From Patescibacteria group bacterium (GTDB lineage Bacteria > Patescibacteriota > Microgenomatia > UBA10105 > UBA927), in NCBI GenBank assembly GCA_049322955.1, contig JBMOPU010000012.1, positions 311,032-375,031 of the forward strand: a stretch of DNA of 64,000 nucleotides, given 5' to 3'. The notes beneath the pieces were generated by a model that had not been told where the DNA came from, did not search any database, and was given only the letters and a program-made list of their open reading frames with translations. Position numbers and translations under genes: made by a program. Below are positions 1 to 3,100 of the stretch, piece by piece. The number at the start of each line of letters is the position of its first letter. Position 1 is the stretch's first letter.

Positions 1-2270
1 TTGCTCCGGTACTTCCGGTGGGACCGGCAGAACCTGTTGCTCCCGTCGCTCCTGTTGAACCTGTCGGACCGGCGGCTCCCGTAGCCCCGGTTGCTCCAGT
101 AGAACCCGTACTTCCTGTCGGACCAACTTCTCCTGTTGCACCCGTCGCTCCCGTACTTCCTGTCGGACCCGCTTCTCCTGTTGCACCCGTCGCTCCTGTA
201 CTTCCGGTGGGACCGGCAGATCCTGTTGCTCCGGTACTTCCGGTGGGACCGGCAGATCCTGTTGCTCCCGTTGCACCTGTTGAACCTGTTGGTCCTGCTA
301 CTCCTGTTGCTCCCGTAGCCCCGGTAGCTCCTGTACTTCCTGTCGGACCGGCCGATCCTGTAGCCCCGGTGGCACCCGTACTTCCCGTCGGACCAGCCGT
401 TCCGGTGGCTCCGGTACTTCCGGTTGCTCCCGTCGGACCAGCCGTTCCGGTGGCTCCCGTGCTTCCTGTGGGACCGGCTTCTCCTGTTGCTCCCGTCGCT
501 CCGGTACTTCCGGTGGGGCCTGATGATCCTGCAGTTCCCGTAGCCCCGGTTGCTCCGGTGGGTCCGGCCTCACCCGTAGCCCCCGTAGCTCCTGTTGCAC
601 CGGTACTTCCGGTGGGTCCTGCAGATCCCGTCGCTCCGGTACTTCCTGTTGGTCCAGCCTCACCTGTTGCCCCCGTAGCTCCTGTTGCACCGGTGGGACC
701 GGCAGAACCCGTAGCCCCGGTTGAACCTGTTGATCCGGTGGGTCCGGCCTCACCCGTAGCCCCCGTTGCTCCCGTTGCTCCTGTGGGACCTGAAGCTCCT
801 GCAGTACCTGTTGCTCCTGTAGCTCCGGTGGGTCCGGCCTCACCCGTAGCCCCCGTTGCTCCCGTTGCTCCTGTGGGACCTGAAGCTCCTGCGGTACCCG
901 TGGCTCCCGTGGCTCCGGTGGGTCCGGCAGATCCTGTCGCTCCGGTTGCACCGGTTGCACCGGTACTTCCGGTGGGTCCGGCTTCTCCCGTTGCTCCTGT
1001 TGCACCGGTTGCACCGGTACTTCCGGTGGGACCTGCAGATCCCGTCGCTCCTGTAGCTCCGGTGGGTCCGGCTTCTCCCGTTGCCCCCGTTGGACCATCA
1101 ATACCGGTTGCTCCGGTACTTCCGGTGGGACCTGCAGATCCCGTCGCTCCGGTGGCTCCCGTACTTCCTGTCGGACCCGCTTCTCCCGTGGCTCCCGTAG
1201 CCCCCGTTGCTCCCGTGGGGCCTGATGCTCCCGCTATGCCGGTTGCTCCCGTTGCCCCCGTCGGACCTGCAGATCCCGTCGCTCCGGTGGCTCCCGTACT
1301 TCCTGTCGGACCCGCTTCTCCCGTGGCTCCCGTAGCCCCCGTTGCTCCCGTGGGGCCTGATGCTCCCGCTATGCCGGTTGCTCCCGTTGCCCCCGTCGGA
1401 CCCGCTTCTCCTGTTGCTCCCGTCGATCCTGTTGCTCCCGTAGCTCCGGTGGGGCCTGATGCTCCCGCACCGCCAGTAGCGCCGGTTGCTCCCGTTGCTC
1501 CGGTGGGTCCTTCCGTTCCCGTTGCCCCGGTCGAACCGGTGGGTCCCTGAAGACCGGTTGCCCCCGTCGGACCAGCCGTTCCGGTGGCCCCCGTAGCCCC
1601 GGTAGCTCCCGTGGCTCCGCTTGGTCCTGATGCTCCTGCAGTTCCTGTTCCTCCCGTTGCTCCGGTGGGTCCGGCTTCTCCCGTCGCTCCCGTAGAACCG
1701 GTAGGGCCGGCCTCACCGGTTGCACCTGTCGGACCGGCAGATCCCGTAGCACCGGTTGCTCCCGTGGCTCCTGTTGCACCGCTTGGACCGGGTGTACCAA
1801 GCGTTCCCGTGGCTCCGCTTGCTCCGGTGGGACCGGCTTCGCCCGCAGACCCTGTTGCTCCCGTTGCTCCGGTGGGTCCTTCCGTTCCCGTTGCCCCGGT
1901 ACTCCCCATCGGTCCGGCTTCTCCGGTGGCTCCTGTTGCTCCTGTCGCTCCGGTTACACCGGTTGGACCGGCAGTTCCTGCTCCTCCGGTGGCTCCGGAA
2001 GATCCGACCGCTCCTGTCGCTCCGGTACTCCCGGTCGGACCCTGTCCGCCGCCGCTCCCGGTGGCTCCCGCACTTCCCGTCGGTCCCGTTGATCCCGCAG
2101 GTCCGGTAGCTCCTGTAGCTCCGGCTACTCCGGAGGAACCCGTCGGTCCCGTTTCGCCGATATTGCCTTCAATTCCCGTAGCCCCGGTGCTTCCCATCGG
2201 GCCTGTTACTCCCGAGGCTCCCGTACCTCCCGTTGCCCCTGTGGCACCCTGTGCGCTTCCTGATTGACTA
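1..2270. repeat. Tandem triplet/9-bp-unit repeat DNA encoding the collagen-like G-X-T region
   Basis: Highly repetitive GGN-NNN-AC(N) units over >2.2 kb. Both strands remain nearly open (plus strand gives an xPV repeat with one stop). Expected to undergo slipped-strand length variation. Confidence 0.8.
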
Positions 2271-3100
2271 CCGGGAGGAGTTGTCGTGTTGTTGCCGCCG
2301 ATGGTTATGGGAGGAGTGGTAGGTGTTTGCGCTTGTGGAGGGGCGGTGCTTTGGTTAAGTCCCGTAATCTGGAAAAAAATAAATCCGCTCGTTAAAAGTA
2401 ACAACAACAACAGTGCGGCGAGTCCGTACGGGGAGAGGAATGCGCGTAAAAAATTCTGTTTCGGGGTTGCGGCCGTCGCCACGACTTCGGCGGAGGCGGG
2501 AATGACAATCGTGTCTGTGCCCGGTGCGGGGACGAACGGCTGTGCGGCAACGGGCGCAGGCTGTGCCGCAGTAACAGGAGGTGGAGTGATCGGAGGAGGA
2601 ATAACCGGAGGAACGACCGCCGGTTTGACGTCGACGTGTGCGGGTAACGCGTGTACCTCGGGAAGCAAGTGCACATCGGGAAGTGCTTTCGCCGAAGGCA
2701 ATACTTCCTGTTGTGCTTTTACCAACGGGATATTTGCGACATATTGTGCGGGATTGTGCTCACTCCAGCCCGTGAGTACCGCATAACGAAAAAAAGCCCT
2801 AATGGCGGATAATCGGCGATTAATCGTTGCAGGCGGCGTATGTGAAATTCTTAGCCAGCGCTTAAAATCCTCGATGCTGTCCGTGGTGATGGTGCGGAGT
2901 GCATCCTTCGGGGAATCGATGCGGTGAGCGGGGGCGGCTGTCCGTTGTGATTGGCAAAACCAGGAGAAAAATGCGTTCAGATCACTTCTGTAGTTTTTGC
3001 GGGTTTGCTTGGCGGCGTTTTCTACGACCAGGTATTCATCAAACGAGGCGATGAGTTTGCTCAGATAATTCAACAAATTCTCCCAGATTACACTAGCCAT
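1..3100 (-). CDS. Collagen-like (G-X-T)n repeat surface protein with N-terminal XerC/D-type integrase SAM-like (core-binding) domain and one TM helix; 3' end runs off the window
   Basis: ATG at 3100..3098 (reverse strand). I translated the frame by hand: [48 protein letters not shown]...[30 protein letters not shown] matches the XerD N-terminal pattern. A Pro-rich linker follows, then the TM segment [19 protein letters not shown], then >750 aa of uninterrupted Gly-X-Y triplets with Thr dominating Y ([25 protein letters not shown]...). This frame reads through the point where the plus-strand ORF has its stop (1548-1550). The six-frame track omits it because no stop lies inside the window. Confidence 0.7.

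What the first reader, a model, noticed from the sequence alone, without database searches (positions are those of the whole stretch)
1..3100. Collagen-like (G-X-T)n giant fused to a cytoplasmic XerC/D-type integrase SAM-like domain
The real gene is on the minus strand and is absent from the ORF track because it has no in-window stop. Hand translation from ATG 3100 gives (a) an N-terminal domain matching the tyrosine-recombinase core-binding fold (...[18 protein letters not shown]...[28 protein letters not shown], cf. XerD ...NTLNAYRRDLSMMVEWL...SSARLLSAVRRLFQYLYREKFREDDPSAHL) with no catalytic domain after it, (b) a Pro-rich linker and one TM helix, and (c) more than 750 residues of unbroken Gly-X-Y triplets with Thr dominating Y. 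Gly-X-Thr collagen repeats are known from Bacillus BclA exosporium filaments (O-glycosylated on Thr) and giant viruses. A DNA-binding-type domain inside the cell fused to an extracellular collagen stalk is not a described architecture. The repeat DNA is also a probable contingency (length-variation) locus.
Basis: partly seen in the sequence, partly recalled or inferred. Interest (0 to 1): 0.85.

Follow-up and report, generated by a model that had tools for sequence, protein, structure and literature searches.

The report
Membrane-anchored collagen fibre with integrase-type tail
This is the first third of a giant cell-surface fibre gene from an ultra-small groundwater (CPR) bacterium. A collagen stalk predicted to be about half a micrometre long is joined through one membrane helix to a DNA-binding-type domain borrowed from phage integrases, a combination I could not find described and whose inner domain has no known job.

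Summary
The minus-strand ORF from ATG 3100 is open to base 2. It encodes a Phage_int_SAM_1 core-binding (CB) domain (E 1.2e-13), a 92-residue Pro-rich linker, one TM helix (residues 226-245, N-in) and 249 of 249 unbroken G-X-Y triplets (Thr at Y in 71%).

A longer contig matches window 1-3760 without a substitution. There the product is at least 3,443 aa, with 654 uninterrupted triplets (about 560 nm if triple-helical) followed by a non-collagen fibre region.

Intact Gottesmanbacteria orthologues (1,570 and 1,924 aa) have no recombinase catalytic domain. They end in a domain that folds like phage tailspike C-termini.

The gene belongs to a family in the Microgenomates group of CPR: one or two cytoplasmic CB domains, a TM helix, a giant fibre and a "FNWWIIN" end. 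None of the 147 closest clusters has a catalytic domain. Most relatives are split into two coupled genes, with the break inside a CB domain.

The locus always sits beside leuS-comEA-comEC, and its promoter block is under selection.

The architecture is solid. The role of the CB domain (my preference is a DNA or nucleoid tether or a membrane-tethered regulator) is inferred only. Six of the seven literature searches were aimed at this architecture, and none found a description.

The parts
2726..3100 (-). Cytoplasmic N-terminal core-binding (CB, 'SAM-like') domain of tyrosine-recombinase type, residues 1-125. The Pfam match covers residues 17-108 (window 2777-3052).
   Evidence: PF02899 at E 1.2e-13, plus PF13102 and PF13495. 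XerC and XerD models match their N-terminal third only. AF2 gives a helical bundle with pLDDT about 90. Foldseek top hits are lambda Int, XerD and 3nrw. pI is 9.66. Identity to the L003 orthologue is 75%, among the most conserved regions of the protein.
2450..2725 (-). Pro-rich, predicted-disordered cytoplasmic linker, residues 126-217. It carries the conserved short motifs (L/M)P-x-V-H (repeated) and (D/E)T-I-V-I-P.
   Evidence: pLDDT is below 50 over 129-215. The motifs are visible in alignment A1 and in the loci translations. It is the least conserved region, 42% identical to L003.
2366..2449 (-). Juxtamembrane K/R segment plus a single transmembrane helix (residues 226-245). It acts as a signal-anchor with N-in, C-out topology.
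   Evidence: Kyte-Doolittle maximum of 2.42 at residue 227. K and R occur only on the N side. AF2 predicts a helix at 224-246. Identity to L003 is 76%.
2249..2365 (-). Extracellular Pro/Thr/Gln-rich spacer, residues 246-284, between the membrane and the collagen start.
   Evidence: Sequence read.
2..2248 (-). Collagen-like G-X-Y region, residues 285-1033, truncated by the window edge. It continues to 654 triplets on contig L024.
   Evidence: 249 of 249 triplets have Gly first, and Thr fills Y in 178 of 249. PF01391 scores E 2.5e-104. L024 has a 1,962-residue uninterrupted run.
1128..1402 (-). Perfect tandem duplication of a 135-bp (45-aa) collagen unit. It is the only difference between the window and an independent assembly of the same strain.
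   Evidence: TRF reports period 135, 2.0 copies and 100% matches. L020/L024 have one copy and 0 substitutions over window 1-3760. L021/L025 have a 100-N scaffold gap at the same spot.
3101..3145 (-). Conserved promoter block: CTCTTGACA (-35 at 3131-3136), a 16-nt conserved spacer, TATTTA (3109-3114), 8 nt, then the ATG. There is no Shine-Dalgarno sequence, so the mRNA is probably leaderless.
   Evidence: Alignment A2. Mean pairwise identity is 80%, against 55% at third codon positions. The motif occurs once in the window, with 0.03 expected by chance. It is also present upstream of the split-form genes.
18..1550 (+). Antisense 'xPV-repeat' ORF. It is an artefact of the G-X-T repeat on the other strand and not a gene.
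   Evidence: ORF listed. The minus frame is the only stop-free one, and it continues from a Pfam domain into a conserved C-terminal region in orthologues.

Best explanation
Window 2-3100 (minus strand) is the first roughly 30% of a gene for a giant, single-pass, N-in/C-out membrane protein of a Candidatus Gottesmanbacteria (Microgenomates, CPR/Patescibacteria) bacterium.

**Shown.** Reading from the inside of the cell outward, the protein has:
- a basic tyrosine-recombinase core-binding (CB) domain with no catalytic domain;
- a 92-residue flexible Pro-rich tether carrying conserved short motifs;
- one TM helix;
- a Pro/Thr spacer;
- an uninterrupted G-X-(mostly Thr) collagen region of 654 triplets in this strain;
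- more than 870 residues of beta-rich non-collagen fibre.

In orthologues the fibre ends in a domain that folds like phage tailspike and tail-fibre C-termini.

The gene is one form of a family in which one or two CB domains always sit at the cytoplasmic end of a TM-anchored giant fibre. In most relatives the system is two translationally coupled genes. The break falls inside a CB domain, so the small CB protein and the fibre's tail each carry half of one fold.

**Inferred.**
- The protein is a homotrimer, because collagen, Peptidase_S74 and tailspike-type modules are all trimeric.
- It projects a fibre of roughly 0.5 micrometre that serves long-range attachment to a host cell or a surface.
- The three CB domains at its base most likely bind nucleic acid. 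I put about 50% on DNA binding. Within that I put about 25-30% on a membrane-tethered regulator acting on conserved sites such as its own promoter, and the rest on a plain nucleoid tether.

It is not a recombinase.

The confidence value of 0.7 is for the statement as a whole. The architecture and family assignment alone I put at about 0.9, the surface attachment fibre at about 0.6, and nucleic-acid binding by the CB domain at about 0.5.
For: **Architecture in the window.**

**CB fold.** AF2 pLDDT is about 90. Foldseek finds lambda Int, XerD and 3nrw at probability 1.0.

**No catalytic domain.**
- The intact L010 orthologue (1,570 aa) shows only PF02899 and Collagen.
- 0 of 147 closest clusters have PF00589, while 147 of 147 have PF02899.

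**Same strain, longer contig.** There are no substitutions over window 1-3760. The product is called at 3,455 aa, of which 12 N-terminal codons are spurious. The collagen run is 1,962 residues.

**Orthologues.** 17 loci in GTDB genomes, labelled Gottesmanbacteria or Woesebacteria where the label is informative. The intact L003 orthologue is 1,924 aa.

**Family breadth.** Giant members have 2xCB, or carry non-collagen fibre, Peptidase_S74, PA14 or LamG domains. Complete minimal versions of 531-554 aa exist.

**Split CB domain.**
- Joining the small protein's C-terminus to the giant's N-terminus gives one PF02899 hit across the junction: 40.7 and 38.8 bits, profile positions 2-78 and 3-81.
- For L014, the two halves alone score 19.1 and 18.4 bits and match profile positions 2-32 and 45-81. 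For L019, the small-protein half alone scores 25.4 bits (positions 1-35) and the giant's N-terminus alone gives no PF02899 hit.
- The junctions have three different frame relations, so these are separate coupled genes.
- The stop lies 17-26 residues after the second helix-B motif in 37 of 42 small proteins.
- The small gene is followed by a giant gene in L012, L014, L018, L019, L026 and L029.

**Distal tip.** The last 75-95 residues of a C-terminal homologue (pLDDT about 90) match the C-terminal domains of Klebsiella phage depolymerases, the Pam1 tailspike, the K1 lyase and the R2 pyocin fibre. PF24146 K1-lyase_C scores 34 bits in P0173.

**Support for nucleic-acid binding (indirect).**
- pI 9.66.
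- The invariant polar and basic residues T33, N36, Y37, S39, D40 and T92, N94, R95, R96, R101 lie in helices B and D. From my own knowledge, these are the DNA-contacting helices of recombinase CB domains.
- The flexible tether is long.
- The promoter and its spacer are conserved at 80%, against 55% at synonymous sites.

**Chromosomal, not phage.** MBL-comEC-comEA-leuS synteny holds in 12-13 loci, and the same genes sit on a Woesebacteria contig. There are no relatives in IMG/VR.
Against: - No experiment or direct computation shows that the CB domain binds DNA. DNA-binding folds are sometimes reused for protein binding; RodZ's HTH binds MreB (own knowledge).
- The conserved linker motifs (LPxVH, DTIVIP) hint at protein partners.
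- Trimerisation, surface display and adhesion are inferred from domain types only.
- The 654-triplet length comes from a short-read contig at about 4.9x coverage and could be mis-assembled. Other orthologues have 462-600 collagen residues.
- The true C-terminus of this strain's gene was not recovered, because the contig ends inside the gene.
- Mechanical or ligand signalling along a 0.5-micrometre stalk is hard to picture, which weakens the 'sensor' version.
- The literature tools cover open-access text only, so a prior description cannot be excluded.
Confidence: 0.7

Rival explanations
1. The CB domain is a protein-protein adaptor and not a nucleic-acid binder. It would dock the fibre base to a cytoplasmic or membrane partner such as a cytoskeletal element, a secretion or assembly factor, or other CB units, in the way RodZ uses a cytoplasmic HTH to bind MreB.
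For: - The split form shows that CB halves are used as a protein-protein complementation interface.
- The cytoplasmic linker carries conserved short linear motifs typical of partner binding.
- CB domains in recombinase tetramers also make inter-protomer contacts (own knowledge).
Against: - The residues that stay invariant are the polar and basic positions of helices B and D, which define DNA-binding CB domains in general.
- The domain is basic, with pI 9.66.
- No candidate partner gene is consistently adjacent apart from leuS, comEA and comEC.
Confidence: 0.3
2. The locus works with the neighbouring competence genes. The fibre would capture extracellular DNA or a donor cell, and the cytoplasmic CB domains would receive or hold incoming DNA near the ComEC channel.
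For: comEC-comEA-leuS lies next to the CB-fibre gene in every locus with enough flank (12-13 Gottesmanbacteria loci). The same genes sit on a Woesebacteria contig with only 36% leuS identity.
Against: - leuS always lies between the competence genes and the fibre gene, and they are transcribed divergently, so this may be inherited gene order.
- In Woesebacteria, 6.4 kb of other surface-protein genes intervene.
- ComEC delivers single-stranded DNA, whereas recombinase CB domains bind duplex DNA (own knowledge).
- Nothing in the ectodomain resembles a DNA-binding module.
Confidence: 0.08
3. The N-terminal domain is an evolutionary relic of a fusion with an integrase gene fragment. It would now serve only as a cytoplasmic 'plug' ahead of the signal-anchor and have no ligand.
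For: The modules have a phage flavour throughout: integrase CB, collagen, Peptidase_S74 and a tailspike-type C-terminus. That pattern fits a mosaic origin.
Against: - The CB domain is one of the two most conserved parts of the protein: 75% identity against 42% for the linker.
- It is retained in all 147 related clusters, is duplicated in many, and is kept even when the gene is split.
- That pattern indicates strong purifying selection on a function.
Confidence: 0.07
4. The CB-collagen junction or the huge repeat length is an assembly artefact, or the real gene is the plus-strand xPV ORF.
For: - Many public copies are broken at the repeat: partial proteins, N-runs and frame breaks in L002, L005 and L008.
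- The 135-bp unit differs between assemblies.
- The long contig has only about 4.9x coverage.
Against: - The junction CB-linker-TM-spacer-collagen is identical in architecture in at least 12 independent assemblies.
- Two orthologues are intact single ORFs (L003, L010).
- The minus frame is the only stop-free one and runs into a conserved C-terminal region.
- Only the exact triplet number remains uncertain.
Confidence: 0.03

Closest known systems
Bacillus BclA-type and other bacterial collagen-like surface proteins (BclA, Scl1/Scl2, Lcl, Pasteuria Pcl)
   Same: Uninterrupted G-X-Y repeats with Thr dominant at Y and Pro or Ala at X. The NCBIfam SclB and Lcl models match the repeat region. All are surface filaments with a non-collagen globular end. 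Thr at Y is the bacterial norm (PMC8968730).
   Different: - The anchor is an N-terminal TM helix preceded by a folded cytoplasmic domain. There is no LPXTG motif, exosporium-targeting N-terminus or outer-membrane barrel.
- The collagen run (654 triplets in this strain) is much longer than the BclA or Scl stalks, which from my own knowledge are tens of nanometres.
- The terminal domain is tailspike-like, and I found no sign of a C1q/TNF-like or V domain.
- O-glycosylation of Thr was not tested.
Tyrosine recombinases (XerC/XerD, lambda Int, Cre): the core-binding domain
   Same: The N-terminal four-to-five-helix CB fold and its conserved helix B and helix D motifs.
   Different: There is no catalytic domain in the protein, in its orthologues or in its 147 nearest clusters. 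The domain is tethered to the membrane, and in relatives it is duplicated or split between two polypeptides.
Eukaryotic type II transmembrane collagens and collagenous receptors (collagen XIII, XVII, XXIII and XXV; MARCO, SR-A)
   Same: The same topology: an N-terminal cytoplasmic domain, a single TM signal-anchor, and an extracellular collagen triple helix with a C-terminal end (own knowledge; the group is cited in PMC8968730's reference list).
   Different: No sequence relationship outside the G-X-Y repeat. Their cytoplasmic tails are not DNA-binding folds. The host here is bacterial, and the collagen run has no interruptions.
Membrane-tethered one-component DNA-binding regulators (ToxR, CadC, TcpP) and RodZ
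   Same: An N-terminal cytoplasmic DNA-binding-type domain, a linker, a single TM helix and an extracytoplasmic domain. This is what the protein may work like.
   Different: Those proteins use winged-HTH or Xre-HTH domains and small periplasmic sensor domains. Here the fold is a recombinase CB domain and the ectodomain is a fibre of more than 3,000 residues. No regulatory activity has been shown.
Phage tail fibres and tailspikes with collagen-like segments, Peptidase_S74 chaperone domains and C-terminal beta-sandwich domains
   Same: Relatives carry Peptidase_S74 and K1-lyase_C-like domains. The modelled C-terminus matches tailspike and pyocin-fibre C-termini. PHROG tail-fibre families hit P0012.
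   Different: The gene sits in a conserved chromosomal neighbourhood and has no relatives in IMG/VR. The fibre is anchored in the cell membrane and has no virion attachment domain.

Membership tests
Tyrosine recombinase / phage integrase (Xer, Int) | N-terminal core-binding (SAM-like) domain | tested here: met
   PF02899 at E 1.2e-13, above the gathering score. Foldseek hits lambda Int and XerD CB domains.
Tyrosine recombinase / phage integrase (Xer, Int) | C-terminal catalytic domain (PF00589) with the R-K-H-R-H/W-Y active site | tested here: not met
   - There is no PF00589 hit in the 1,033 in-window residues or in the intact 1,570-aa orthologue L010.
- None of the 147 nearest clusters has it.
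- The XerC and XerD models match only positions 2-97 of about 295.
Bacterial collagen-like proteins (PF01391-containing surface proteins) | Long uninterrupted Gly-X-Y repeat region | tested here: met
   249 of 249 triplets in the window and 654 of 654 on L024. PF01391 scores E 2.5e-104.
Bacterial collagen-like proteins (PF01391-containing surface proteins) | Formation of a stable triple helix (trimer) | not testable with these tools
   Inferred from the sequence and from trimeric partner modules in relatives (S74 and a tailspike-type C-terminus). It needs CD or melting of recombinant protein.
Scl1/Scl2 (streptococcal) collagen-like adhesins | N-terminal signal peptide and V domain, plus a C-terminal LPXTG cell-wall anchor | tested here: not met
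   The N-terminus is a cytoplasmic CB domain followed by a TM anchor. Orthologue C-termini end in ...NFNWWIIN with no LPXTG. The SclB NCBIfam hit covers the repeat region only.
BclA-type exosporium collagen glycoproteins | G-X-T/GPT repeats O-glycosylated on Thr, an exosporium-targeting N-terminus, and a C1q/TNF-like C-terminal domain | tested here: inconclusive
   The G-X-T repeats are present. The N-terminal targeting motif is replaced by CB plus TM. The C-terminal model matches tailspike domains and no C1q-like fold appeared among the hits. Glycosylation cannot be tested here.
ToxR/CadC-type membrane-tethered transcription factors | Cytoplasmic winged-HTH (OmpR-type) DNA-binding domain, a single TM helix and a periplasmic sensor | tested here: not met
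   The topology is shared, but the cytoplasmic fold is a CB domain with no wHTH Pfam hit. The protein may work like these regulators but is not a member.
CPR 'CB-anchored giant fibre' family (defined here) | One or two N-terminal PF02899 domains with no catalytic domain, then a Pro-rich linker, a single TM helix, a giant extracellular region and a conserved C-terminal ...F-N-W-W-I-I-N domain | tested here: met
   - The N-terminal parts are met in the window.
- The post-collagen region is met on the same-strain contig L024.
- The C-terminal end was seen only in the orthologues L003, L010, L008 and L014, because the strain's own contig ends about 100 residues short.

The most novel reading that the evidence does not exclude
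The family could be a previously unrecognised device that physically couples the cell surface to the chromosome in ultra-small CPR bacteria. A trimeric fibre about 0.5 micrometre long contacts a host or substrate. Its three to six cytoplasmic recombinase-derived CB domains bind specific DNA: the conserved promoter or intergenic blocks, or DNA entering through the adjacent ComEA/ComEC system. Attachment state, or release of the CB module, would then control gene expression or DNA handling. In most lineages the module would be assembled by non-covalent complementation of a CB domain split between two polypeptides.
Probability: 0.15. Interest if true: 0.9.

Novelty: new variant of a known kind. 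Interest (0 to 1): 0.72.

Why it matters
**For CPR biology.** CPR/Patescibacteria are thought to live attached to other cells, yet their attachment machinery is largely unknown. This family offers a concrete candidate. It is conserved and syntenic across Gottesmanbacteria and has relatives in other Microgenomates. The fibres are predicted to be longer than the cell itself, which makes them testable by cryo-ET, proteomics or antibody labelling.

**For recombinase biology.** A whole clade of core-binding domains has left recombination. None of the 147 nearest clusters has a catalytic domain. These domains work at the membrane, often as a fold split across two proteins.

**For collagen biology.** A predicted 654-triplet uninterrupted, hydroxyproline-free G-X-T helix would be about twice the length of the vertebrate type I helix (own knowledge). 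That makes it a useful test case for how such helices are stabilised.

**For annotation.** These genes are currently labelled 'site-specific integrase', which inflates counts of mobile elements in CPR genomes.

Tried and rejected
- **Wrong frame.** A first translation from base 3099 was off by one base. It was redone from 3100.
- **RNA elements.** Rfam on the intergenic region 2900-3900 found nothing. RNAalifold on 12 upstream regions gave -3.6 kcal/mol and essentially no covariation. I therefore read the conserved blocks as DNA elements and not RNA structures.
- **Promoter scan.** The sigma-70 consensus scan did not flag the TTGACA promoter, because TATTTA fails its -10 rule. I kept the promoter on the strength of conservation.
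- **Phage origin.** There are no relatives in IMG/VR. PHROGs gave no hit for the L010 and L003 post-collagen regions.
- **Recoding in the split form.** Programmed frameshift or readthrough was rejected because the three junctions have three different frame relations.
- **Ribosome link.** PDB chain 9i5v_14 is named RaiA and does have a CB-like N-terminus. I judge it to be an XerC-RaiA joined annotation. A literature search found nothing, so I dropped it.
- **Extending the gene.** An exact look-up with the GTG-start LeuS failed. It succeeded with comEA and with the ATG-start LeuS. The contig still ends inside the gene.
- **Other CB or recombinase genes in the window.** tblastn with the CB domain found only itself.
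- **Literature.** Seven searches were run. Six looked for this architecture or its parts and found no description. only retrieved background on bacterial collagens.
- **An exception.** L027 and L028 are a small CB gene with no downstream ORF in 685 nt and no Rfam hit. This remains unexplained.

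
Full report

Yes. Translating the minus strand from ATG 3100 gives 1,033 codons without a stop down to window base 2. Over 1-2250 it is the only one of the six frames with no stop.

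- Residues 17-108 match Pfam PF02899 (Phage_int_SAM_1) at E 1.2e-13 and 51.5 bits, against a gathering score of 22.3. PF13102 and PF13495 also pass threshold.
- The NCBIfam XerC and XerD equivalog models match only their positions 2-97 of about 295. Only the core-binding (CB) domain is present.
- The single strong hydrophobic segment is residues 226-245. Lys and Arg lie on its N-terminal side only, and there is no Lys or Arg in the 788 residues that follow. With no signal peptide in front of a 125-residue folded domain, this gives an N-in, C-out signal-anchor.
- From residue 285 to the window edge, 249 of 249 triplets start with Gly. Thr fills the Y position in 178 of 249. PF01391 scores E 2.5e-104.
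- An AlphaFold2 model built on alignment A1 gives a helical bundle for residues 2-120 (pLDDT about 90), a disordered stretch at 129-215, and a helix at 224-246.
- The best PDB matches to that model are lambda integrase, XerD and isolated integrase N-terminal domains (probability 1.0; TM-score 0.83 on the 104-residue 3nrw).
- The plus-strand ORF 18-1550 is the antisense image of the repeat.

**2. What organism, and what is the whole gene?**

The neighbours are housekeeping genes: leuS (divergent), comEA, a comEC Competence-domain ORF, an MBL-fold ORF, argH, argG, two OTCase-type genes and argS. This is a cellular chromosome.

A scan of one genome per GTDB species found 17 related loci. Where the organism label is informative it reads Candidatus Gottesmanbacteria, and one locus is Woesebacteria. 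Several records carry an 'uncultured Gammaproteobacteria' title, which I take to be a submitter placeholder, since their gene content and synteny are the same as the rest. Public names for the fragments are 'site-specific integrase, partial' or 'hypothetical protein'.

Exact look-ups of the window's ComEA and LeuS proteins found other assemblies of the same strain. Contig ERZ15185090 NODE_490 (locus L024) has no substitution against window 1-3760 and differs only by one 135-bp indel.

On that contig the gene was called at 3,455 residues and still runs off the contig end. Twelve of those codons are a spurious TTG start inside the -35 box. In the 3,129 codons I could read, the G-X-Y run is 1,962 residues, or 654 of 654 triplets, with Thr at Y in 497. 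It is followed by at least 871 residues of non-collagen sequence. At 0.286 nm per residue (own knowledge of collagen geometry) that is about 560 nm. This number rests on a short-read contig at about 4.9x coverage and needs long-read confirmation.

Two orthologues are intact single ORFs: L010 at 1,570 aa and L003 at 1,924 aa. Both read CB, linker, TM, spacer, collagen (462 and 567 residues), then 800-1,070 non-collagen residues ending in ...NFNWWIIN. A Pfam scan of L010 finds only PF02899 and Collagen, with no catalytic domain.

**3. The family.**

An exhaustive HMMER search of 1.84 billion representatives with residues 1-270 gave 792 hits at E below 1e-3. Of the 147 best clusters beyond the three found earlier, all 147 carry PF02899 and none carries the recombinase catalytic domain PF00589.

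- **Giant members.** Eight are giant proteins. Several have two tandem CB domains, then a TM helix, then a collagen or non-collagen fibre carrying Peptidase_S74 or PA14. A Laminin_G_3 domain is seen in the post-collagen region of the L008 orthologue. Three of the eight end in ...FNW(W/F)I(I/V)N, and the others are truncated.
- **Minimal members.** Complete versions of 531-554 aa also exist.
- **Small members.** 114 clusters are small proteins of 141-230 aa.

**4. The split form.**

In L014, L018, L019, L026 and L029, the small gene (a CB domain plus the first two helices of a second one) is directly followed by the giant gene. In L012 a 310-aa protein with two CB domains plays the same part. 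The giant gene's first 45 or so residues look like the last two helices of a CB domain.

I tested this by joining the two ends:

| Sequence scanned | PF02899 score | Profile positions |
|---|---|---|
| L019 concatenated | 40.7 bits, E 3e-10 | 2-78 |
| L014 concatenated | 38.8 bits, E 1.2e-9 | 3-81 |
| L019 small-protein half alone | 25.4 bits | 1-35 |
| L019 giant N-terminus alone | no PF02899 hit | - |
| L014 small-protein half alone | 19.1 bits | 2-32 |
| L014 giant N-terminus alone | 18.4 bits | 45-81 |

The L018 concatenation was weaker (12.3 bits) and does not count as support.

The three junctions have different frame relations: an ATGA overlap, an in-frame TAA plus one codon, and an 11-nt overlap. 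These are therefore separate, translationally coupled genes and not a conserved recoding site.

In 37 of the 42 small proteins with a recognisable second helix-B motif, the stop lies 17-26 residues after it. That is a conserved gene end and not a contig truncation.

The window's gene is thus the fused, single-CB version of what is mostly a two-gene system. This ties the CB module functionally to the fibre's cytoplasmic tail.

**5. The outer end.**

A search with the last 400 residues of L003 found 42 proteins. Every hit that carries an organism name is from Patescibacteria. Some reach PF24146 (K1 capsule lyase C-terminal domain; 34 bits in P0173, gathering score 27) or PF13884.

A model of P0158 (63% identical to L003's end) has pLDDT about 90 over its last 70 residues. 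That part matches the C-terminal domains of Klebsiella phage depolymerases, the cyanophage Pam1 tailspike, the K1 lyase, the R2 pyocin fibre and the Sf6 tailspike. Probability is 1.0 for most of these and 0.95 for Sf6; E-values are 2e-3 to 6e-2; 73-95 columns align.

Collagen, S74 and tailspike ends are all trimeric modules, so a homotrimeric fibre is the natural inference. It is not shown.

No relative was found in IMG/VR. The MBL-comEC-comEA-leuS neighbourhood is kept in 12-13 loci, and the same genes lie on the Woesebacteria contig. The gene is chromosomal.

**6. What does the CB domain do?**

This is inference. CB and TM are the most conserved parts: 75% and 76% identity to L003, against 42% for the linker.

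The residues invariant across the orthologues (T33, N36, Y37, S39, D40, T92, N94, R95, R96, R101) lie in helices B and D. Of these, Y37, D40 and R96 stay invariant across all 147 clusters, and N36, R95 and the Arg in the helix-D RxFF motif (R101 in the window) are at least 90% conserved. These are the helices that recombinase CB domains place in the DNA major groove (own knowledge).

Other indirect points:
- The domain is basic, with pI 9.66.
- It hangs on a 92-residue flexible tether.
- The 45 nt upstream of the ATG are 80% identical among 12 orthologous loci, against 55% at third codon positions. That includes the promoter spacer, which normally drifts. The same CTCTTGACAnGCTTATTAATAAT block precedes the split-form genes. 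Something sequence-specific acts there.

I therefore favour nucleic-acid binding at about 50%, either as a membrane-tethered regulator or as a nucleoid tether.

The main rival, at about 30%, is a protein adaptor role. It is suggested by the split-fold interface and by the conserved linker motifs LPxVH and DTIVIP. A link to DNA uptake through the conserved comEA/comEC neighbourhood is possible but weak, at about 8%.

**7. The contingency-locus claim.**

The repeat DNA is mostly imperfect: 63-85% matches for most periods. One 135-bp unit is perfectly duplicated at 1128-1402. An independent assembly with no other difference has one copy, and a third has a 100-N gap there. Orthologues range from 462 to 1,962 collagen residues.

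This fits length variation by unequal recombination, but it is equally explained by assembly ambiguity. All such changes are in frame, so this would be length tuning and not phase variation.

**8. Comparison with what is known, and verdict.**

The ectodomain is a bacterial collagen-like fibre. Thr at Y is typical for those (PMC8968730), but the anchor is different and the predicted length is unusual. The topology is that of eukaryotic type II transmembrane collagens. The cytoplasmic layout resembles ToxR/CadC or RodZ, with a different fold.

It fails the defining test for a recombinase because it has no catalytic domain.

Six of the seven literature searches were aimed at this architecture or its parts, and none found a description. 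The review of prokaryotic collagens never mentions integrase. These tools see open-access text only.

I rate it a new variant of a known kind, a bacterial collagen-like surface fibre. The family signature of cytoplasmic CB modules, often split across two genes, has not been described as far as I could find. The function of those modules is open and directly testable.

Noticed in passing
window 3101-3145 (-): The promoter block CTCTTGACA, a 16-nt spacer, TATTTA and 8 nt precede the ATG, with no Shine-Dalgarno sequence. The transcript probably starts at or within 2 nt of the start codon, making it leaderless. The block is 80% identical across 12 orthologous loci, spacer included, and contains alternating TATTA/TAATA 5-mers.
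   Followed up: partly
window 3209-3257 (-), between the fibre gene and leuS: This is a second conserved intergenic block: TTGATA...GAAGCTAA...ATGCGGGAATTCGTGAAA. The GAAGCTAA...TGCGG core recurs upstream of the split-form gene in L014 and in the Woesebacteria locus L017. It has no Rfam match and no covarying structure, so it may be a shared operator or a second promoter.
   Followed up: partly
window 6957-7778 (+) and 7934-8845 (+): comEC appears as two separate ORFs, one with the Competence domain and one with the metallo-beta-lactamase domain. The same split is kept in all 12 related loci, so it looks like a lineage feature and not a sequencing error.
   Followed up: partly
window 35283-39305 (+) and 51380-57199 (-): There are two more giant ORFs (1,340 and 1,939 aa) with no Pfam hit at E 1e-4. 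The first has about six hydrophobic segments near its N-terminus and one at its C-terminus. The second has none and is rich in Ala, Thr and Glu.
   Followed up: partly
window 47112-47993 (-) and 45591-46253 (-): A sortase gene and a DUF11-repeat protein lie close together. Nearby are signal-peptide-like ORFs with no Pfam hit (40382-41725 and 43324-44796). This suggests a separate sortase-dependent surface-protein cluster.
   Followed up: no
window 12515-13507 (+) and 13512-14474 (+): There are two adjacent paralogous carbamoyltransferase genes (OTCase/ATCase family) inside the arginine gene cluster.
   Followed up: no
L003 69-3779 and 15785-18652; also L002, L008, L010: In relatives the locus is flanked by further giant surface genes. 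One is a second fibre paralogue with a different C-terminal end (...DWLMLL...). The other is a LamG-rich giant TM protein that starts a few bases after the fibre gene's stop. The corresponding region lies outside this window.
   Followed up: partly
L027 5051-6251 and L028 2141-3340: This small CB-plus-half-CB gene has no ORF in any frame for the 685 nt downstream, and no Rfam match. It is the one exception among the seven small-gene contexts examined.
   Followed up: partly
P0134 (825-aa fragment, residues 763-823): One family member carries an intein-splicing (Hint) domain hit at the truncated end of its ectodomain.
   Followed up: no
PDB 9i5v chain 14 (401 aa, named RaiA): This chain has a genuine CB-type N-terminus (family profile E 3.9e-6). 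It is probably an XerC-RaiA joined annotation, but a CB-domain protein in a ribosome entry is odd.
   Followed up: partly
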